Positions 14,655 to 39,186 of a stretch of 40,128 nucleotides of DNA are shown here, piece after piece; position 1 is the stretch's first letter, and every line of letters starts with the position of its first letter. The position numbers and the translations under genes were made by a program. Below the pieces are notes generated by a model. The model was given only the letters and a program-made list of their open reading frames with translations. It made no database searches and had not been told where the DNA came from. Source of the DNA: an uncultured Candidatus Peribacteria bacterium (lineage in GTDB: Bacteria; Patescibacteriota; Gracilibacteria; UM-FILTER-43-11); assembly GCA_964448005.1 (NCBI GenBank), contig CAYUUW010000010.1, forward strand, positions 1-40,128, read 5' to 3'.

Positions 14655-14963
14655 CTTTCGCCTTTCGTGTTTTGTTTCCGGTAGCCTTCCAGGCTCCATT
14701 CGGGCTGCCCAAAAGGCTTCCGGAAACGGCTCTCTGCCCGGAACTTCTCGCTCTCCAGTCGGGGCCACACCCTGCGAACAGAGGGTTGGCCACAGGAACT
14801 GAGGGGCAGAAATCGGGTCAGCGAGCGCCGGTGCTGCTAAGGATCGTTGGCTGAAAAATAACATAAAAATTAAATTACGTCAATAAAAATTCAGCGCCCC
14901 GTCTCTTTGATTGGCGCCTATTTTTCTGTTTCTTTACTGAAGAATAATGAGCGGGAAAATCAG

Positions 14964-15040
14964 GTCAGATTCTTCGCTGCGCTCTGAATGACGGATGGGC
15001 TCAGTCAAATCGTAGGCAGGTCGGGGCACGGAATGACAGG
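14964..15040. repeat. Two hairpin-family elements in the 14655-15147 spacer
   Basis: gtcagattcttcgctgcgctctgaatgac lies at 14964-14992. A truncated inverted copy of the 38210-type element lies at 15011-15040 (reverse complement cctgtcattccgtgccccgacctgcctacg). Confidence 0.6.
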
Positions 15041-18006: not shown

Positions 18007-18091
18007 CCTGCCTGCCGGCAGGGATAGTTGTTATTATTGAGAGCCCCCCTCTGTCATTCCGACCGAAGCGCAGCGCAGCGGAGGAATCTTC
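18007..18091. repeat. Palindrome cctgcctgccggcagg plus hairpin-family element
   Basis: ctgtcattccgaccgaagcgcagcgcagcggaggaatcttc lies at 18051-18091. The cctgccggcagg core at 18011-18022 recurs at 38229-38248 and 39119-39139. Confidence 0.6.
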
Positions 18092-31559: not shown

Positions 31560-32990
31560 ATGATTTACGAAACCGTCATCGGCCTGGAAGTGCATTGCCG
31601 GCTGAAAACCAAAAGCAAGCTGTTCTGCCGCTGCGCCAACGAAGGGGTGGCCGACGAAGCCCCCAACAGCCGCGTCTGCCCCATCTGCATGGGCTTTCCC
31701 GGCATGCTGCCTTTGATGAACCAGGCGGCTGTGGAGAAGGGGGTGCAGGCGGCTTTGGCCTTGGGCTGCACAATTCCGGAATTCTCGAAGATGGACCGCA
31801 AGAGCTACTTCTACCCCGATCTGCCCATGGGCTACCAGATCTCGCAGTACGATCTGCCCGTGTCGCAGAAGGGGGCGGTGAGCATCACGCTGTCCGACGG
31901 ATCCGAGAAAGCCATCGGCGTGACCCGGCTGCACCTGGAGAACGACGCAGGCAAGCTGACGCACGGCGCCAATGGAACCCTCGTCGATTACAACCGGGGC
32001 GGCGTTCCCCTGATGGAGATTGTGAGCGAGCCGGATCTGCGCACGCCCGAGGAGGCGGTGGAATACGCCCGCCAGCTGCAGAAGATCGTGCGCTACGTGG
32101 GGGCGAGCGATGCGGACATGGAAAAGGGGCAGATGCGCTTCGACCTGAACCTTTCCCTGCGCCCTGTGGGCCAGGCGGCCTTCGGCACCCGCTCGGAAGT
32201 CAAGAACCTCAATTCCTTCCGCTCGCTGCAGAAGGCTGCGGAGTACGAGATCAGGCGCCAGACGGAGCTGCTGGAGAAGGGCGAGAAGATCGTTCAGGAA
32301 ACCCGCGGCTGGGACGACGAAAAAGAGATCACCGTGTCGCAGCGCAGCAAGGAGGAGGCGGCCGACTACCGCTACTTTCCCGAGCCGGATCTGCCTCCTT
32401 TGCGGATGACGAAGGAGATGGTGGAGGCGCTGCGCGCCCAGCTTCCCGAGCTGCCCGAGGCCAAAGCGAAGCGCTACCAAAGCGAGTTGGGCCTGCCTGC
32501 GGCCGATGCGCGCCAGATCGCGGAGGACCGGGCCTTGGCCGAGTACTACGAGGCGGCGCTGGCGACATCCGGCGAGGCGAAGAAGACGGCGAACTGGCTG
32601 CTGAGCGAGCTACTGGCCCTGCTGAAGCCGGAGGGGCTGACGATCGAGCAATCGAAGCTCTCTGCTCCGAACTTGGGCAAATTGGTCAAATTGATTGAAT
32701 CCGGCGCGATCACGGGCAGGATCGCCAAGGACCTTTTCCCCGAGCTTTACGCGGGGGATCTGAATCCGGAGAAGCTGGTGGAGGAGAGGGGACTTACGGT
32801 GATGGAAGATGCCGGCGCCTTGGAGGCGATCTGCCGCCAGGTGATCGAGCGCAATCCGCAGATCGTGGCGGACTTCAAGGCCGGCAAGGAAAAGGCCTTG
32901 GGCGGCTTGGTGGGTCAGGTGATGGCGGCGACGAAGGGGGCGGCGAATCCGGGGAAAGTGAATGAGGTGTTGAGGGAATTGCTTCGGTAA
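31560..32990 (+). CDS. gatB: Asp/Glu-tRNA(Asn/Gln) amidotransferase subunit B
   Basis: MIYETVIGLEVHCRLKTKSKLFCRC, CPICMGFPGMLP, DRKSYFYPDLPMGYQISQ, VTRLHLENDAGK, and the C-terminal YqeY-like tail. Confidence 0.93.
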   Translation: MIYETVIGLEVHCRLKTKSKLFCRCANEGVADEAPNSRVCPICMGFPGMLPLMNQAAVEKGVQAALALGCTIPEFSKMDRKSYFYPDLPMGYQISQYDLPVSQKGAVSITLSDGSEKAIGVTRLHLENDAGKLTHGANGTLVDYNRGGVPLMEIVSEPDLRTPEEAVEYARQLQKIVRYVGASDADMEKGQMRFDLNLSLRPVGQAAFGTRSEVKNLNSFRSLQKAAEYEIRRQTELLEKGEKIVQETRGWDDEKEITVSQRSKEEAADYRYFPEPDLPPLRMTKEMVEALRAQLPELPEAKAKRYQSELGLPAADARQIAEDRALAEYYEAALATSGEAKKTANWLLSELLALLKPEGLTIEQSKLSAPNLGKLVKLIESGAITGRIAKDLFPELYAGDLNPEKLVEERGLTVMEDAGALEAICRQVIERNPQIVADFKAGKEKALGGLVGQVMAATKGAANPGKVNEVLRELLR

Positions 32991-33002: not shown

Positions 33003-34011
33003 AGAATGCTTGTTATGGGAAACAATAAAAATCTCATCATCTATCAGGCTAAAACCGGAGCCATTGAGCTTAAGGGTGATTTTAAAAAAGAGACGGTATG
33101 GGCTAATTTGAATCAAATTGCTCAGCTTTTTGATACTGATAAATCAGGTATATCTAGGCATATCAAGAACATTTTTAAAATCAAAGAACTTAAACAAAAA
33201 TCAAGTGTTGCAATTTTTGCAACAGTTCAAAAGGAAGGTGGTAAGCAAGTGAAGCGCGATATAGAATACTATAATTTAGACATGATTCTTTCCGTTGGCT
33301 ATAGGGTGAATAGTAAAAAAGCAACTTCATTCCGCCAATGGGCGACTAAAACTTTGCGTTCCCACCTCATTCAGGGCTATACCATTAATCGCTCTCAAAT
33401 TGGCAGGAACTACGAGAAATTTATGAAGGCCGTGGCAGAAGTTAAGTTGCTTTTGCCTCCTTCGGACTTGGTCGACGCCAACGATGCCCTTGAACTGGCT
33501 CAGCTTTTCGCCAATACGTGGTTTTCTCTGGATGCTTATGATAGGTCCACTTTTCCCGTAAAAGGATTGATGAAAAAGGAAGTTGATTTTACTGCCAATC
33601 AGCTTGCTCAAGCTTTGGCTGAGCTTAAAAAGGGGCTCATGGCCAAAAAGGAGGCTTCGGGGCTTTTCGGTTCCGAGCGGGGTGGTCAGAGCTTGGCGGG
33701 GATTGTGGGGAATGTTTTTCAGTCTTTTGAGGGTGAGGATTTATATGTGACGATTGAAGAGAAGGCAGCTCATTTGCTTTACTTCATTGTTAAAAACCAT
33801 CCTTTTGTGGATGGAAACAAGCGTTCCGGGGCTTTTGCCTTTGTTTGGTTTTTGAATCGGAGTGGAATTCTGGAGAAAGAGAAAATGAACCCCGTTGCCC
33901 TCACTGTGTTGACTTTGCTGGTGGCAGAGAGTGATCCAAAGGAAAAGGATAGAATTATTGGATTGATTTTATTGCTTCTGAGATAGGCGATCTTAAAAAA
34001 TGATCAGGGGG
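33003..34011 (+). mobile_element. Putative inserted single-gene cassette (RhuM-Fic/Doc) bounded by duplicated gatB 3' ends; no recombinase
   Basis: See the direct repeats 32943-33002 and 34012-34071. The interior has visibly lower GC. Confidence 0.45.
33006..33986 (+). CDS. RhuM-family N-terminal domain fused to a Fic/Doc (death-on-curing type) domain
   Basis: RhuM block: ETVWANLNQIAQLF...ISRHIKNIF...YYNLDMILSVGYRVNSKKATSFRQWATKTLRSHLIQGY. Doc-type Fic motif: HPFVDGNKRSGAFAF. Confidence 0.85.
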   Translation: MLVMGNNKNLIIYQAKTGAIELKGDFKKETVWANLNQIAQLFDTDKSGISRHIKNIFKIKELKQKSSVAIFATVQKEGGKQVKRDIEYYNLDMILSVGYRVNSKKATSFRQWATKTLRSHLIQGYTINRSQIGRNYEKFMKAVAEVKLLLPPSDLVDANDALELAQLFANTWFSLDAYDRSTFPVKGLMKKEVDFTANQLAQALAELKKGLMAKKEASGLFGSERGGQSLAGIVGNVFQSFEGEDLYVTIEEKAAHLLYFIVKNHPFVDGNKRSGAFAFVWFLNRSGILEKEKMNPVALTVLTLLVAESDPKEKDRIIGLILLLLR

Positions 34012-34059
34012 GCGAATCCGGGGGAGCTGAATGAGATTTTGAGGGGGATGTTGGGGTAG
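34012..34059 (+). pseudogene. Relic copy of the gatB 3' end (ANPGELNEILRGMLG*)
   Basis: It is gap-free and 36/48 nt identical to 32943-32990 (ANPGKVNEVLRELLR*). The phase is the same and the stop falls at the equivalent codon. Confidence 0.6.
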
Positions 34060-34096
34060 GGGAGTTTTATTGATTTTACTATTTTAACAATTAACT

Positions 34097-34637: not shown

Positions 34638-34927
34638 CATGGACTCCGGATCGGGTCCGGAGTGACGGAGGGGGAGGGCATGGACTCCGGCCCTGCCTAC
34701 CGTCGCCGGAATGACGGCCATTCATCCAGCAAACCATCCGTCATTCCGTGCCACGACACGGAATCCACCTGTCCCTCCAATTCACCTTTTAGACTGTGGC
34801 AGATCTGCCTCCCGCCGCCACCCATGGACTCCGGATCGGGTCCGAAGTGACGCTCCCCACCCGTCATTCCGTGCTACGACACGGAATCCACCTACCCCTC
34901 TATCATTCCGGCGAAAGCCGGGATCCA
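34638..34927. repeat. Pile-up of six hairpin-family elements upstream of the GIY-YIG gene
   Basis: The elements lie at 34638-34668(-), 34679-34717(-), 34738-34769(+), 34823-34852(-), 34861-34892(+) and 34902-34927(+). The consensus is CCGTCAYTCCG-loop-CGGARTCCA. Confidence 0.8.
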
Positions 34928-35266
34928 TACCAAAACAGTCATCATGAAGCAGCCCTGCGTTTACATTCTGGCTAGCCAGCCGCAGGGCACCTTGTACATC
35001 GGCGTCACGAGCGACCTGATGAAAAGGGTGCATGAGCACAAGCAGAAGCTCGTGGAGGGGTTCACTAAAAAATACAATGTAGATCGACTCGTCTATTTTG
35101 AGCTCCATGAGGATATGCCTTCGGCCATTGAGCGTGAGAAGCATTTGAAGGAGTGGAAAAGGCGATGGAAGATCGAACTCATAGAAAAGGAGAATCCCCT
35201 TTGGACCGATCTGTATGAGAGTCTGCTGGAGTGAAAAGCGTGGATTCCGGCTTTCGCCGGAATGAC
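34902..35266 (+). mobile_element. Putative 365-bp unit: a GIY-YIG gene bracketed by 26-nt inverted hairpin elements
   Basis: atcattccggcgaaagccgggatcca at 34902-34927 matches the reverse complement of 35241-35266 (gtcattccggcgaaagccggaatcca) at 24/26 positions. The repeats lie 16 nt before the ATG and 6 nt after the stop. Confidence 0.45.
34944..35234 (+). CDS. GIY-YIG nuclease superfamily protein (UPF0213/YhbQ-like, COG2827 type)
   Basis: CVYILASQPQGTLYIGVTSDLMKRVHEHK...VYFELHEDMPSAIEREKHLKEWKRRWK. Confidence 0.88.
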   Translation: MKQPCVYILASQPQGTLYIGVTSDLMKRVHEHKQKLVEGFTKKYNVDRLVYFELHEDMPSAIEREKHLKEWKRRWKIELIEKENPLWTDLYESLLE

Positions 35267-35368
35267 GAATGGTGTGGTCCTTAGGCTTTTATTGAATAAA
35301 AAATTTGTTCAATTAAATCCAAACCCACCCGTCATTCTGGCGCTGCCCATCGACGCCGGATCGTGGCT
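35241..35368. repeat. Two further hairpin-family elements downstream of the GIY-YIG gene
   Basis: tggattccggctttcgccggaatgac lies at 35241-35266, and cccgtcattctggcgctgcccatcgacgccggatcg at about 35328-35368. Confidence 0.7.
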
Positions 35369-35461
35369 TGGTGTGACGATTGGCGTTAGGCGTGAATCAT
35401 CAAAAAATACAGGCGGGGCAATGTCCCGCCTGTATTTCGCCTCTTTCCTCAGTTTATCCGA

Positions 35462-36895
35462 TTAGGGGCACATCATTCCTCCATCGTCGATGCTCCACAA
35501 ATGGGCAGTGATCAGGCTGCTCCGATCCGGTTCGCTCTTGCAGTAGGTGGAATCGCCTCCGTGGAAGGGGACCTTGGGCTGCACGGCCTGGGCGTTCCAT
35601 CCTGCCAAAAGGGAATCGTAATTCGGGGTGGAAAGGCGGGCACCTGTAAACATATCCGTCATATCGGTGACGGAAGCTATATTCCAATTGCCGATATTCT
35701 GGTCGAAATCGATGGCATCGGCGAACATGAAGTGCATGTCGGTCACTTTGCTGACGTCCCAGCCTCCGATGTCCTGGTTGAAGGGGGTGTCTGCGAACAT
35801 TCCTGTCATATTCGTCACGTTGCTCACGTCCCAATTGCCAAGGTTATGGTTGAAAGGGGTATATGAGAACATGTCGGTCATATTCGTGACATTTCCCACA
35901 TTCCAGCCCCCGATATCCTGATTGAATGCGGCCGCACCCGAAAATATTCCGCTCATGTCTGTGACGCCGCTAACATCCCAATTGCCAATGGCTTGATTGA
36001 AGGCGGTGTTTTGGGCGAACATTCCCCTCATTTCTTTCACATTGCCTACATCCCAGCTGCCGATCTTCTGGTTGAAAGCAGTATTATGAGCGAGCATGTA
36101 GGACATATCTGTTACGTTTCCTACATCCCAGCTGCCGATGTCTTCGTTGAAAAGGGTCGATGAAAACATTCCGAACATATTTTTCACACCACTCACATCC
36201 CAGTTGCTTATTTTCTGGTTGAACGCATTGTTACCAGCAAACATATCACTCATGCTTGCCACCTTGCTCACATCCCAACTGCTGATGTCTTGGTTGAAGA
36301 AGGGGGTCGCTGCGAACAGGGCGCTCATGTCCGTCACCTTGCCCACATCCCAACCGCTGATGTCTTGGTTTAAGGAGGTTTCCGCGAACATGGCGCTCAT
36401 GTCCGTGACATGCGAAAGGTTGGGGCTGTCGGTGGCGTTGAGGGTCATGTTGTACGCTCCACTGAAAGCGCGAGCCATAGAAGTCCATGGGCTCTTGCCC
36501 CATTGCTCCACACTAAGCAGCTTTCCGCCTTCCGCCGTATAGGCAAAATAGATTCGCGGAAAAGTGCCGGAGATAGAGATGTTATAGGTTCCTGGCCCAG
36601 CGTAGTCACACGTGTAATCCCCGATTTGGTGGGTTGCTTCATGGATACCGTCGCTGTCGCAATCGACGCTGTAGTCGTAGACCTCCCCTGGAAAGGTGGG
36701 GATGGTGAACTGGTCATTGGCCGAGATTCCGGGATTGTCCGTCTTCGCTTTGATCACGAAATCATTGGGATCGTTCTTCGCGGAGATCGTCAAATCGTTG
36801 GGAGCGTAGGGGGTGCGGGAGGCATGCGCATAATTCATGTCCAAGAATCCTGCCAGCAGGACTAGGGCGGCTAGGGCGAATGAAATTTTCTTCAT
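35462..36895 (-). CDS. BspA-family leucine-rich-repeat surface protein (DUF285 repeats)
   Basis: A signal peptide is followed by about 10 repeats of FNQDIxxWDVSxVTxMxxMF. Confidence 0.85.
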   Translation of the reverse strand: MKKISFALAALVLLAGFLDMNYAHASRTPYAPNDLTISAKNDPNDFVIKAKTDNPGISANDQFTIPTFPGEVYDYSVDCDSDGIHEATHQIGDYTCDYAGPGTYNISISGTFPRIYFAYTAEGGKLLSVEQWGKSPWTSMARAFSGAYNMTLNATDSPNLSHVTDMSAMFAETSLNQDISGWDVGKVTDMSALFAATPFFNQDISSWDVSKVASMSDMFAGNNAFNQKISNWDVSGVKNMFGMFSSTLFNEDIGSWDVGNVTDMSYMLAHNTAFNQKIGSWDVGNVKEMRGMFAQNTAFNQAIGNWDVSGVTDMSGIFSGAAAFNQDIGGWNVGNVTNMTDMFSYTPFNHNLGNWDVSNVTNMTGMFADTPFNQDIGGWDVSKVTDMHFMFADAIDFDQNIGNWNIASVTDMTDMFTGARLSTPNYDSLLAGWNAQAVQPKVPFHGGDSTYCKSEPDRSSLITAHLWSIDDGGMMCP

Positions 36896-38174: not shown

Positions 38175-38258
38175 GGACCTCCTCCGGCTCCTCCAAGGGG
38201 GGAGGGTTGCTGTCATTCCGTGCTCCGACCTGCCTGCCGGCAGGCAGGCACGGAATCC
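38175..38258. repeat. Composite repeat (GGACCTCCTCC...GGAGG module plus GTCATTCCGTGC-palindrome-GCACGGAATCC hairpin), left of the ORF6N gene
   Basis: 38210-38248 is 38/39 identical to 39101-39139. The inner perfect palindrome is ctgcctgccggcaggcag. Confidence 0.8.
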
Positions 38259-38273
38259 ATCCAATCTTCTAAG

Positions 38274-38305
38274 CTTGAGGTCGCAATTTGCGACCTCAAG
38301 TTTTT
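38274..38305 (+). terminator. Terminator-like perfect 26-nt palindrome plus T5
   Basis: cttgaggtcgcaa|ttgcgacctcaag followed by ttttt. A near copy occurs inside the ORF6N CDS at 38616-38642. Confidence 0.6.
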
Positions 38306-38397
38306 CTGGCCGAGATAGCCGACTATCTCTTGGTTTTTTTAAAATCACTTGATAAGTAAACTTTTGTTTACTAGAATGAGTAGGAAATTGGAATTTG

Positions 38398-38964
38398 ATG
38401 AATAGCAGCATGAAAAAGGAATCTGTGCCCATGACTATTTTTCCTGAAAAAATTCAGGATTTCATTTATGTCATTCGTGATCAGCGAGTGATTTTGGATA
38501 AAGATCTCGCGAAGCTGTATGGCGTGGAAACCAGGAGGCTGAACGAGCAGGTAAAAAGGAATATCGACCGATTCCCGGAGGATTTTATGTTTCAGCTAAC
38601 AGAGAAGGAGGTTGCTTTAAGATCGCAAATTGCGACCTTAAAGAAAAGGCGTGGTGAACATCGTAAATACTTGCCCTTTGCTTTTACTGAGCATGGTGCC
38701 ATCATGGCCGCCAATTTGCTCAGGAGTCCTCAGGCGATCTCGGTAAGTATTCAGGTTGTCCGTACTTTTATCGAACTCCGCAAATGGACCCAATCCCATC
38801 AGGCGCTTATTGAGGAAGTAGACTCACTCAAAAATTTTGTGCTCAAAAATTCACAAACAAGCAGCCAAGAATTCAGGAAGGTCTGGAGGGCGATCGAGAA
38901 ATTGATGGTTCCTGAACCCAAACCAGAGGAAAGGCGAATTGGATTTAGGCTGGAAGGGGATTGA
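38398..38964 (+). CDS. ORF6N (KilA-N-related) domain DNA-binding protein
   Basis: IRDQRVILDKDLAKLYGVETRRLNEQVKRNIDRFPEDFMFQLTEKE...RKYLPFAFTEHGAIMAANLL. Alternative starts lie at 38395, 38410 and 38431. Confidence 0.8.
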   Translation: MNSSMKKESVPMTIFPEKIQDFIYVIRDQRVILDKDLAKLYGVETRRLNEQVKRNIDRFPEDFMFQLTEKEVALRSQIATLKKRRGEHRKYLPFAFTEHGAIMAANLLRSPQAISVSIQVVRTFIELRKWTQSHQALIEEVDSLKNFVLKNSQTSSQEFRKVWRAIEKLMVPEPKPEERRIGFRLEGD

Positions 38965-38987: not shown

Positions 38988-39186
38988 GGACCTCCTCCCG
39001 GCCTCCTCCAAAGGAGGAGGGGAAATGCAAAATACAGATCCCCCCTGCCCCCCCCTTTCGCAAGGGGGGTGTCGTTGCCAATCACAGGTCTTCTCCCACT
39101 CCGTCATTCCGTGCTCCGACCTGCCTGCCGGCAGGCAGGCTCCTCCAAAGGAGGAGGGGTGCTGTCATTTCGGCGAAAGCATTAAT
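38988..39186. repeat. Composite repeat block right of the ORF6N gene
   Basis: ggacctcctcccggcctcctccaaaggaggagggg lies at 38988-39022, and the hairpin cccccc-tttcgcaa-gggggg at about 39051-39070. ccgtcattccgtgctccgacctgcctgccggcaggcagg lies at 39101-39139, ctcctccaaaggaggagggg at 39140-39159, and gtcatttcggcgaaagc at 39164-39180. Confidence 0.8.

What the first reader, a model, noticed from the sequence alone, without database searches (positions are those of the whole stretch)
34638..35368. GIY-YIG gene tightly bracketed by inverted hairpin repeats inside a nest of related hairpin elements
The 96-aa GIY-YIG (UPF0213-type) gene is flanked 16 nt upstream and 6 nt downstream by inverted copies of one 26-nt element, 24/26 identical. 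This gives a 365-bp unit with terminal inverted repeats that are themselves stem-loops (attccggc-gaaa-gccggaat). Six more members of the family (CCGTCAYTCCG-loop-CGGARTCCA, in both orientations) are packed into the 300 nt upstream, and one more lies downstream. Solo copies occur in distant spacers of this window. This resembles the REP/RAYT relationship, a nuclease gene next to the hairpin repeats it may mobilise, but with a GIY-YIG nuclease instead of a Y1 transposase. I do not know of a formal description of such a system.
Basis: partly seen in the sequence, partly recalled or inferred. Interest (0 to 1): 0.75.

Follow-up and report, generated by a model that had tools for sequence, protein, structure and literature searches.

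The report
Ssn nuclease gene with hairpin repeats
This is a small GIY-YIG nuclease gene flanked by its own hairpin repeats, a pairing already described in 2025 as the Ssn/NTS system (a single-stranded-DNA cutter and its target repeats); here it occurs in an uncultured Patescibacteria (CPR), probably Peregrinibacteria, genome, so it is a new example, not a new kind.

Summary
A 96-aa single-domain GIY-YIG gene (34944-35234, +) is bracketed by inverted copies of one hairpin element, 16 nt upstream and 6 nt downstream. It sits in a cluster of eight related hairpins, and further copies lie in distant spacers, far more than chance gives.

It is not undescribed. Chenal et al. (Nat Commun 2025, PMC11893778) defined the Ssn family. 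These are about 94-aa GIY-YIG enzymes that bind an NTS/SRM hairpin only as single-stranded DNA and cut a few nucleotides 5' of it. Their genes are typically flanked by those hairpins.

The window protein is 58% identical to the Neisseria gonorrhoeae SsnA orthologue and keeps the Tyr, Tyr and Glu residues whose mutation abolished cleavage. Its downstream hairpin differs from the Neisseria NTS core by one compensatory base-pair swap (the last two, non-core, bases also differ).

In 80 homologous loci from more than twelve phyla, the commonest arrangement is the same: hairpin, gene, inverted hairpin, with a median of 16 nt before ATG. DNA homology between unrelated loci stops at the outer hairpin edges.

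The host is a Patescibacteria (CPR), probably Peregrinibacteria, MAG.

Verdict: a new member of a known kind, of low to moderate interest.

The parts
34944..35234 (+). ssn gene: a 96-aa single-domain GIY-YIG nuclease of the Ssn family
   Evidence: It matches Pfam PF01541 at E=1.9e-16. It is 58% identical (E=5e-42 pairwise) to the 94-aa N. gonorrhoeae SsnA orthologue. Y7, Y18, R28, H32, E65 and N84 are invariant across 78 homologues.
34901..34929 (+). Upstream flanking hairpin (type D), TATCATTCCGGCGAAAGCCGGGATCCATA. It is a slightly decayed copy: ATC replaces GTC, and the stem has one T.G mismatch.
   Evidence: pair I1; (-6.4 kcal/mol, z=-2.2); alignment to the NTS. It fails the published SRM pattern only at the G of GTC.
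35240..35268 (-). Downstream flanking hairpin (type D), CGTCATTCCGGCGAAAGCCGGAATCCACG. It is intact and NTS-like.
   Evidence: pair I1; (-10.6 kcal/mol, z=-4.4). It matches the published SRM degenerate pattern. In the hairpin core it differs from the Neisseria NTS consensus by one compensatory C-G to G-C pair; the last two non-core bases also differ.
34638..34667 (-). Hairpin type A1, CGTCACTCCGGACCCGATCCGGAGTCCATG
   Evidence: (-8.6 kcal/mol).
34682..34716 (-). Hairpin type B: the 5' and 3' boxes are intact but the loop is expanded. It does not fold as one hairpin better than shuffles.
   Evidence: (z=-0.6).
34739..34768 (+). Hairpin type C1, CGTCATTCCGTGCCACGACACGGAATCCAC
   Evidence: (-7.1 kcal/mol, z=-3.0).
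34823..34852 (-). Hairpin type A2, with one stem mismatch. It is part of a 49-nt direct repeat of the A1 region.
   Evidence: families D3 and I2.
34862..34891 (+). Hairpin type C2, a 91%-identical direct repeat of C1
   Evidence: family D4; (z=-3.9).
35330..35366 (+). Degenerate copy E: the 5' box CCGTCATTCTG is kept and the 3' box has decayed
   Evidence: (z=+0.6).
14962..15039 (-). Two partial or degenerate solo copies in an intergenic spacer
18052..18090 (+). Solo copy with a long loop (TGTCATTCCGACCGAAGCGCAGCGCAGCGGAGGAATC) in an intergenic spacer
38211..38260 (+). Solo copy whose loop contains a second palindrome (CCTGCCTGCCGGCAGGCAGG), giving a nested hairpin
   Evidence: (-16 kcal/mol, z=-3.7).
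39102..39185 (+). One truncated copy (5' half only, 39102-39139) and one degenerate copy (39163-39185)

Best explanation
The locus is an Ssn/SRM module. It consists of a gene for a small single-domain GIY-YIG endonuclease of the Ssn family (Chenal et al. 2025) and the enzyme's cognate hairpin repeats (NTS-like 'Ssn-related motifs').

By homology to the characterised Neisseria, N. elongata, N. wadsworthii and Wolbachia enzymes, the protein should behave as follows:
- It recognises the hairpin only when the DNA is single-stranded and only on the strand that reads CGTCAYTCC...GGARTCC.
- It uses the conserved GTC box and the C that follows the stem.
- It makes one Mg-dependent cut a few nucleotides 5' of the motif.

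In the cell this would fragment ssDNA that carries the repeats, whether incoming transforming or conjugative strands or exposed genomic ssDNA. That would modulate recombination around repeat-marked regions.

The hairpin, gene, inverted-hairpin unit behaves as one cassette that has been exchanged widely between phyla. The surrounding cluster of three stem variants in mixed, largely alternating orientation is a BIME-like array of the same repeat family.

Shown here: family membership, cassette architecture, repeat excess and conservation of catalytic residues. Inferred from the literature: ssDNA cleavage. Speculative for this host: the role in DNA uptake.
For: 1. Literature. PMC11893778 defines the family, the NTS consensus CGTCATTCCCGCGMAVGCGGGAATCYRG, the NTS-ssnA-NTS architecture, ssDNA-only cleavage 5' of the motif, and the loss-of-cleavage mutants Y6A, Y17A and E64A.

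2. Protein.
- It has a GIY-YIG domain only and is 96 aa long.
- tblastn to an N. gonorrhoeae chromosome gives E=1e-30.
- The gonococcal ORF is 94 aa with Y6, Y17 and E64. It aligns at 58% identity without gaps, placing the window's Y7, Y18 and E65 on those residues.
- The same residues, plus R28, H32 and N84, are invariant in 78 homologues.

3. Repeats.
- The downstream flank copy matches the published SRM pattern, with 0.17 hits per shuffle expected in the whole window.
- Alignment with the gonococcal NTS copies shows the same 5' box, the same 3' box and a compensatory stem change.
- The copies fold as ssDNA hairpins.

4. Generality.
- 586 relatives were found in representative genomes, and the best 80 loci come from more than 12 phyla.
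- 56 of 80 loci have a GTCWY-hairpin within 200 nt on both sides.
- Orientation counts: upstream, 55 (+) against 13 (-); downstream, 50 (-) against 15 (+).
- Hairpins are 17-fold enriched next to the gene, and the median upstream spacing of 16 nt equals that in the window.
- Stems covary between lineages, and usually the two flanks of one locus carry the same variant.

5. Cassette boundaries. In all-against-all blastn, homology between non-syntenic loci ends at -35 to -45 from the ATG and +25 to +45 after the stop. These are the outer GTCA edges of the hairpins. For the window the boundaries are -41 and +33.

6. Nothing else fits. No Rfam family reaches threshold, and no terminator-like T-runs follow the hairpins.
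Against:
- The CDD model cd10448 that the authors use to delimit the family could not be run.
- The N. meningitidis protein itself was not available. The gonococcal orthologue was used, and its identity as SsnA is inferred from its length, its residues and its NTS context.
- Only one of the eight clustered copies fully matches the published SRM pattern. The A, B and C types have other stems or longer loops, so some may not be substrates of this enzyme.
- The upstream flank copy carries a change in the GTC triplet, which the paper found most important for cleavage.
- The biological role was shown only in a naturally competent Neisseria. Whether this CPR host uses the system in the same way is unknown.
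- Only 40 kb of the genome is available.
Confidence: 0.85

Rival explanations
1. The cassette is, or recently was, an autonomous mobile element. The GIY-YIG nuclease nicks at the hairpins and thereby drives movement of the hairpin, gene, hairpin unit and the spread of solo hairpins. This would make it a functional analogue of REP/RAYT or a new insertion-sequence class. It extends the best explanation and does not exclude it.
For: - The unit has sharply defined ends at the outer hairpin edges across non-syntenic loci. These edges are where Ssn is predicted to cut, 5' of each motif.
- Homologues at 59-72% amino-acid identity occur in more than 12 phyla in unrelated gene contexts. One example lies between hsdR and hsdM in a cyanobacterium and in a Nitrosomonas.
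- Some loci carry two copies (L029, L035, L058).
- Close relatives differ by indels that carry hairpins.
- In L047 vs L056 the coding sequence is nearly identical while the flanks are about 85-90% identical.
- The window has a dense BIME-like array and dispersed solo copies.
- The authors raise the same hypothesis.
Against: - GIY-YIG enzymes are hydrolytic nucleases with no known strand-transfer or covalent intermediate (established knowledge of the superfamily). A 96-aa protein would therefore need host repair or recombination to complete any movement.
- The two flanking motifs lie on opposite strands. A single strand then carries only one cleavable site, which is unlike IS200/IS605 peel-and-paste.
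- The L029 duplicate is a 700-bp segmental duplication that includes extra flank, not a clean cassette copy.
- Hairpin indels can arise by slippage or recombination within repeat arrays.
- There is no homologue in 50,697 phage records, and only 33 plasmid records hold one, mostly megaplasmids, chromids or mislabelled chromosomes.
- The window has a single gene copy.
Confidence: 0.2
2. The hairpins are ordinary REP-like stem-loops that act as transcript stabilisers, terminators or protein-binding sites. On this view they are unrelated to the nuclease, and their position next to the gene is coincidental.
For: - All copies are intergenic.
- The upstream copy sits 16 nt from the ATG, so it would lie in the 5' UTR, and the downstream copy sits just after the stop.
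- REP elements are known to stabilise mRNA (established knowledge).
Against: - The same association and spacing recur in 80 loci across phyla, with 17-fold enrichment next to the gene.
- Specific binding and cleavage of the motif was shown for four homologues.
- No T-run follows the hairpins, and a separate terminator-like palindrome lies at 35405-35437.
Confidence: 0.03
3. The gene is a UPF0213/YhbQ-type DNA-damage-response nuclease or a free-standing GIY-YIG homing endonuclease. In that case the hairpins are not its substrate.
For: - It is a small stand-alone GIY-YIG protein, like YhbQ, and pairwise similarity to YhbQ is detectable (E=6e-6).
- It has a weak match to the group I intron endonuclease model TIGR01453.
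Against: - Identity to YhbQ is only 28%, against 58% to gonococcal SsnA.
- The TIGR01453 score is 20.7 bits against a cut-off of 56 and covers 31 residues.
- The protein has no DNA-binding extension of the kind homing endonucleases carry.
- There is no intron or phage context.
Confidence: 0.03

Closest known systems
Ssn family of site-specific ssDNA endonucleases with NTS/SRM hairpin repeats (SsnA, NMV_0044/NMB0047 of Neisseria meningitidis; Chenal et al., Nat Commun 2025, PMC11893778)
   Same: - The protein is a single-domain GIY-YIG enzyme of about 95 aa and is 58% identical to the gonococcal orthologue.
- The catalytic Tyr, Tyr and Glu residues are conserved.
- The gene is flanked by inverted hairpin repeats with the same CGTCAYTCC 5' box, an 8-bp stem, a short loop and a GGAATCC 3' box.
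- The repeats are clustered and intergenic.
   Different: - The host is a Patescibacteria (CPR), probably Peregrinibacteria, MAG and not a member of the Pseudomonadati.
- The stem has a compensatory C-G to G-C swap.
- The cluster mixes at least three stem and loop variants, most of which fall outside the published SRM search pattern.
- The flank orientation is hairpin (+), gene, hairpin (-), which is the commonest form. At the gonococcal locus the arrangement is hairpin (-), gene, hairpin (+), hairpin (+).
- No activity data exist for this member.
REP/BIME elements and their RAYT (REP-associated tyrosine transposase) genes
   Same: - A nuclease gene is flanked by inverted copies of a short extragenic palindrome.
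- That palindrome is dispersed through the genome and forms arrays of alternating orientation and subtype (BIME-like).
- Hairpin recognition takes place on ssDNA.
   Different: The enzyme is a hydrolytic GIY-YIG nuclease, not an HUH/Y1 transposase. No strand transfer is known, and mobilisation has not been demonstrated.
IS200/IS605 insertion sequences
   Same: The elements are small, have subterminal hairpins recognised as ssDNA, and are cut at a distance from the hairpin.
   Different: - In IS200/IS605 both end hairpins are read on the same strand. Here they lie on opposite strands.
- The catalytic family is different.
- No evidence for excision or insertion exists.
Neisserial dRS3 repeats and intergenic mosaic elements
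   Same: The NTS contains the dRS3 core ATTCCC-N8-GGGAAT, and the window's type D element is the same design with ATTCCGGC/GCCGGAAT. Both are clustered between genes.
   Different: dRS3 was defined as the bare palindrome and is also used as a phage integration site. The oriented 5' and 3' boxes that define the NTS are what is conserved here.
UPF0213 / YhbQ small GIY-YIG nucleases (E. coli)
   Same: Both are stand-alone GIY-YIG domains of about 100 aa.
   Different: Identity is only 28%.

Membership tests
Ssn (cd10448) ssDNA endonuclease family | Single-domain GIY-YIG protein of about 94-100 aa with no extra DNA-binding domain | tested here: met
   The protein is 96 aa. Pfam GIY-YIG covers residues 4-77 and no other domain is found.
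Ssn (cd10448) ssDNA endonuclease family | Homology to Neisseria SsnA (the paper's criterion is E < 1e-10) | tested here: met
   tblastn to the N. gonorrhoeae chromosome gives E=1e-30 at 58% identity. Pairwise comparison gives E=5e-42 with 54 of 93 residues identical. Caveat: the gonococcal orthologue was used, not the N. meningitidis protein itself.
Ssn (cd10448) ssDNA endonuclease family | Catalytic residues equivalent to Y6, Y17 and E64 of SsnA | tested here: met
   Y7, Y18 and E65 align to Y6, Y17 and E64. They are invariant in 78 homologues.
Ssn (cd10448) ssDNA endonuclease family | Gene flanked by NTS/SRM hairpin repeats on both sides | tested here: met
   Inverted copies lie 16 nt upstream and 6 nt downstream.
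Ssn (cd10448) ssDNA endonuclease family | Repeats match the published SRM degenerate pattern HGTCWYN(0-2)YYVSBRHN(0-5)WNVSBRGN(0-2)RNCYNB | tested here: inconclusive
   The downstream flank copy matches fully, and one further partial hit is found, against 0.17 expected per shuffle. The upstream flank copy fails by one base (ATC for GTC). Types A and C fail on stem or loop details.
Ssn (cd10448) ssDNA endonuclease family | Assignment to CDD model cd10448 (GIY-YIG_unchar_3) | not testable with these tools
   No CDD library is available. NCBIfam has no specific model for this family.
Ssn (cd10448) ssDNA endonuclease family | Binds and cuts only ssDNA, 5' of the motif, on the motif strand only | not testable with these tools
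   This needs purified protein and oligonucleotides. It has been shown for four homologues in PMC11893778.
REP/RAYT | The associated gene encodes an HUH/Y1 (IS200-like) transposase | tested here: not met
   The protein is GIY-YIG and has no Y1_Tnp match.
REP/RAYT | Gene flanked by inverted copies of a dispersed extragenic palindrome | tested here: met
IS200/IS605 | Left-end and right-end hairpins recognised on the same (top) strand | tested here: not met
   The two flanking motifs are in inverted orientation, so their recognisable strands are opposite.
GIY-YIG homing endonucleases (I-TevI type) | Nuclease domain plus a linker and a DNA-binding domain, with an intron, phage or free-standing mobile context | tested here: not met
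   The protein is 96 aa with one domain. TIGR01453 scores 20.7 bits against a 56-bit cut-off. There are no phage homologues.
UPF0213 / YhbQ | Close sequence relationship to E. coli YhbQ | tested here: not met
   Identity is 28% over 79 residues at E=6e-6, against 58% to SsnA.

The most novel reading that the evidence does not exclude
The hairpin, ssn, hairpin cassette may be an active mobile element. On this reading a hydrolytic GIY-YIG nuclease, helped by host replication or repair, moves the cassette and seeds solo hairpins and BIME-like arrays. That would make it a bacterial transposable-element class built on a GIY-YIG enzyme, the counterpart of REP/RAYT. It would be active even in a reduced CPR genome. 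The predicted cut sites would coincide with the cassette boundaries that I see conserved across phyla.
Probability: 0.2. Interest if true: 0.7.

Novelty: new member of a known kind. Interest (0 to 1): 0.25.

Why it matters
As it stands, this locus adds a CPR (probably Peregrinibacteria) example to a nuclease and repeat system published in 2025. It shows the typical cassette layout with several co-resident hairpin variants.

- **Annotation.** The many small 'GIY-YIG nuclease family protein' genes and the hairpin-derived pseudo-ORFs around them can be labelled correctly.
- **Enzyme discovery.** Each Ssn and hairpin pair is a candidate sequence-specific ssDNA cutter.
- **The open question.** It is not known whether these cassettes are mobile and whether Ssn generates the repeat families. 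The boundary analysis across 80 loci (homology ending at the outer hairpin edges) and the hairpin indels between close relatives give concrete starting points for testing that.

Tried and rejected
- **Known RNA family or terminator.** Rfam gave only sub-threshold noise. The terminator scan found none, and the real terminator-like palindrome is a separate feature at 35405-35437.
- **Solved structure.** phmmer against PDB sequences gave no hit at E<=0.01, so no structure of a close relative is deposited. I did not run a structure prediction because the Pfam and SsnA matches already settle the fold.
- **Identifying the source record.** An exact-protein look-up found no indexed contig. The cluster look-up gave 'NCBI, no name'. 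Taxonomy was instead inferred from GatB homologues.
- **Getting the N. meningitidis SsnA sequence.** The paper's supplements are not held. I obtained the gonococcal orthologue by chance from a chromosome filed as a plasmid in PLSDB.
- **Empty-site comparison.** The nearest available relative is L083, whose GatB is 81% identical. It is too divergent: everything downstream of gatB differs, and no hairpins of the family occur in its 4.4 kb.
- **Clean cassette duplication as evidence of transposition.** The two copies in L029 are part of a 700-bp segmental duplication, so this is not diagnostic.
- **Paralogues in the window.** There are none.
- **Integron attC sites.** I considered this and rejected it on sequence. 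There is no GTTRRRY/RYYYAAC core, and orientations are mixed where attC arrays are unidirectional. This rests on established knowledge of attC and was not formally tested.
Full report
**What is in the sequence.**

Between 34638 and 35368 the window holds a 96-aa ORF (34944-35234, +). Its only Pfam match is the GIY-YIG catalytic domain, at E=1.9e-16 over residues 4-77. The ORF is bracketed by an inverted repeat with arms 34903-34927 and 35241-35265, 25 nt long and 96% complementary.

The upstream arm ends 16 nt before the ATG, and the downstream arm begins 6 nt after the stop. Together they form a 365-bp unit. Each arm is itself a stem-loop:
- The downstream copy (read on the minus strand, CGTCATTCCGGCGAAAGCCGGAATCCACG) folds as ssDNA at -10.6 kcal/mol, z=-4.4.
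- The upstream copy has a T.G mismatch in the stem and reads ATC where the family has GTC. It folds at -6.4 kcal/mol.

Five further copies lie in the 270 nt upstream, at 34639-, 34682-, 34740+, 34824- and 34863+. One decayed copy lies downstream at 35330+. These copies share a 5' box CGTCAYTCCG and a 3' box CGGARTCCA, but they have at least three different stem and loop fillings. Part of the array is a duplicated module (families D3 and D4).

Solo, partial or nested copies sit in intergenic spacers near 14962-15039, 18052, 38211 and 39102-39185.

The excess over chance is clear:
- The full pattern gives 5 hits against 0.01 expected.
- The 5' box with up to one mismatch gives 11 hits against 0.96 expected.

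There are five extra upstream copies, not six. The upstream flank copy is slightly decayed. The label 'UPF0213-type' is imprecise.

**What it is.**

A full-text search for GIY-YIG together with hairpin repeats returned Chenal et al., Nat Commun 2025 (PMC11893778). That paper reports the following:
- It defines the Neisseria Transformation Sequence (NTS), CGTCATTCCCGCGMAVGCGGGAATCYRG.
- It finds that a 94-aa single-domain GIY-YIG gene, ssnA (NMV_0044/NMB0047), is flanked by NTS-like 'Ssn-related motifs' (SRM) across bacteria. 71% of homologues have at least one SRM nearby, and 42% have one on both sides.
- It shows in vitro, for four homologues, that the enzyme binds the hairpin only as ssDNA and only on the motif strand, and cuts a few nucleotides 5' of it.
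- The mutants Y6A, Y17A and E64A bind but do not cut.
- The three bases 5' of the palindrome (the GTC of the CGTC box, by my reading of the NTS consensus) matter most for cleavage. The C after the palindrome matters most for binding.
- In N. meningitidis the system lowers integration of NTS-bearing transforming DNA.
- The authors themselves point out that NTS-ssnA-NTS looks like an insertion sequence. They compare it with IS200/IS605 and REP/BIME/RAYT and propose domestication as a hypothesis.

Further searches found no other description.

**Membership tests.**

A tblastn search of PLSDB hit a 2.17-Mb N. gonorrhoeae replicon that is filed as a plasmid, at E=1e-30. The ORF there is 94 aa, has Y6, Y17 and E64, and lies among canonical NTS copies.

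The window protein aligns to that ORF without gaps at 58% identity (E=5e-42). The alignment places Y7, Y18 and E65 on the three mutated residues. In an alignment of 78 homologues, Y7, Y18, R28, H32, E65 and N84 are invariant. E. coli YhbQ (UPF0213) is only 28% identical.

On the DNA side:
- The downstream flank copy satisfies the published SRM search pattern, with 0.17 hits expected per shuffled window.
- It differs from the NTS core by one compensatory C-G to G-C pair (the last two, non-core, bases also differ).
- The upstream flank copy fails that pattern by one base.
- The A and C types fail on stem or loop details. They are variants outside the published search pattern.

CDD cd10448 assignment and enzymatic activity could not be tested.

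**Generality and cassette boundaries.**

A scan of one genome per species found 586 relatives. The best 80 loci are 59-72% identical at the protein level. They come from Cyanobacteria; Alpha-, Beta-, Gamma- and Deltaproteobacteria; Planctomycetes; Omnitrophota; Patescibacteria; Chloroflexota; Ignavibacteria; Nitrospirae; Zixibacteria; Bacteroidetes; Caldisericota; and a Neisseriaceae MAG.

A simple detector (GTCWY followed by a perfect stem of at least 6 bp) gave these results:
- 56 of 80 loci have such hairpins within 200 nt on both sides of the gene.
- Upstream orientation is + in 55 loci and - in 13. Downstream orientation is - in 50 and + in 15.
- With stricter settings the hairpins are 17-fold denser within 80 nt of the gene than elsewhere in the loci (7.9 against 0.47 per kb).
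- The median distances are 16 nt upstream and 10 nt downstream, which matches the window.

Stem sequences covary between lineages. Examples are ATTCCCGCG, ATTCCGGCG, ATTCCAGCG, ATTGCGGCG, ACCCCCGCG and ATACCGGCG, each with its complement. The two flanks of one locus usually share the variant.

In all-against-all blastn, nucleotide homology between non-syntenic loci ends in two narrow zones: -35 to -45 from the ATG and +25 to +45 after the stop. These are the outer GTCA edges of the hairpins. For the window the limits are -41 and +33, that is 34903 and 35267. The cassette is therefore a discrete unit whose ends coincide with where Ssn is expected to cut.

I did not see this boundary analysis in the sections of the paper that I read. 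It is consistent with movement of the unit as a whole but does not prove it.

**Dynamics.**

- Between two syntenic Dehalococcoidia loci (L047 and L056), a 90-nt indel directly after the ssn stop carries an extra hairpin. The coding sequence is nearly identical while the flanks are about 85-90% identical.
- Between two Zhongshania loci, a 145-nt indel carries two hairpins.
- Betaproteobacterial loci (L009, L021, L064) have the cassette embedded in arrays of two alternating hairpin types, much like the cluster in the window.
- Some loci have two gene copies, but the L029 pair is a segmental duplication and not a clean cassette copy.
- In Leptolyngbya and a Nitrosomonas MAG the cassette sits between hsdR and hsdM.
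- No homologue occurs in 50,697 phage records.

**Host and context.**

The window is an entire 40,128-bp NCBI contig. Its GatB is 65-73% identical to proteins named Patescibacteria group or Candidatus Peregrinibacteria, so the host is a CPR bacterium.

The cassette lies at the right edge of a low-GC stretch (33-45% GC, 33.0-34.6 kb). That stretch includes a RhuM/Fic gene bracketed by the gatB 3' end and a 55-nt remnant copy of that end. This suggests an integrated island.

No second GIY-YIG gene is present in the window. The nearest available relative contig (L083) is too divergent to serve as an empty-site comparison.

**Mechanism and rivals.**

Best explanation (confidence about 0.85 for identity and biochemical mode): this is an Ssn nuclease with its cognate SRM hairpins. 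The enzyme reads the hairpin on ssDNA and nicks just 5' of it. The repeat-marked regions are thereby subject to ssDNA fragmentation, which modulates recombination. The role in this CPR host is inferred, not shown.

The main rival, or extension, is that the cassette is itself mobile and that Ssn spreads the hairpins (about 0.2).
- In favour: the sharp boundaries, the phylum-wide distribution in unrelated contexts, and the hairpin indels.
- Against: GIY-YIG enzymes are hydrolytic and lack strand-transfer chemistry. The two cleavable motifs lie on opposite strands, unlike IS200/IS605. Repeat-array indels have simpler explanations.

Two other readings are each unlikely, at about 0.03. One is that the stem-loops are merely regulatory and the co-location is coincidental. 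The other is that the gene is a YhbQ-type or homing endonuclease.

**Verdict.**

The feature is real and was well observed, but the system has been formally described since March 2025, including the REP/RAYT analogy. This locus is a new member of that kind. Its minor particularities are the host phylum, a compensatory stem variant, several co-resident hairpin subtypes and a nested hairpin. Interest is low to moderate. The open and interesting question is whether these cassettes are mobile.

Noticed in passing
window 32935-32990 and 34006-34062 (with 33006-33986 between them): A remnant of about 55 nt of the gatB 3' end lies 1 kb downstream of the intact gatB end. It matches the gatB end of a relative (L083) at 82%. 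The two copies bracket a low-GC (35-45%) insert that carries a RhuM/Fic-domain gene, which looks like an island integrated into the 3' end of gatB.
   Followed up: partly
window 18007-18026, 38229-38248, 39120-39139: A second palindrome family, CCTGCCTGCCGGCAGGCAGG, gives 4 hits against 0.01 expected. At 38212-38260 it sits inside the loop of an SRM-type hairpin, forming a nested hairpin. At 39103 the same 5' half lacks the 3' arm.
   Followed up: partly
window about 38176-38206, 38988-39023 and 39139-39158: A third short palindromic repeat (GGACCTCCTCC..GGC.TCCTCCAAAGGAGGAGGGG) recurs in the same spacers, next to the SRM copies. I read it from the sequence only.
   Followed up: no
window 14 hairpin copies, positions -8 to -1 relative to GTCA: A C-rich, semi-conserved extension (roughly CCCNYCY) precedes the GTCA box in most copies. 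This is the region where Ssn enzymes cut, which the paper describes as variable.
   Followed up: partly
L082 (N. gonorrhoeae NZ_CP119140.1, positions 1880778-1884056): A 2.17-Mb gonococcal chromosome is filed as a 'plasmid' in PLSDB. At its ssnA locus the NTS copies are arranged as hairpin (-), gene, hairpin (+), hairpin (+). This is the opposite of the hairpin (+), gene, hairpin (-) layout that predominates in the 80 other loci.
   Followed up: partly
L001:485-5052 and L010:579-3784: In Leptolyngbya sp. PCC 6406 and a Nitrosomonas MAG, the ssn cassette lies between genes I judged to be the type I restriction-modification genes hsdR and hsdM from their N-terminal sequences (no family search was run), with about 71% nucleotide identity through hsdR. 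The operon and the cassette appear to have travelled together.
   Followed up: partly
L047:3285-3400 vs L056; L016:1613-1757 vs L018: Syntenic close relatives differ by indels of 90 nt and 145 nt that carry one or two extra hairpin copies. In L047 vs L056 the ssn coding sequence is almost identical while the flanks are about 85-90% identical.
   Followed up: partly
window 35462-36895 (-): The convergent downstream gene encodes a 477-aa DUF285 repeat protein (E=7e-95). It shares the palindrome at 35405-35437 as a likely bidirectional terminator.
   Followed up: no
window 38395-38964 (+): A 189-aa ORF lies in the hairpin-rich spacer region. It is preceded by a palindrome (GAGGTCGCAATTTGCGACCTC, about 38278-38298), and a similar sequence recurs inside the ORF at about 38623-38640. 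I did not analyse it.
   Followed up: no
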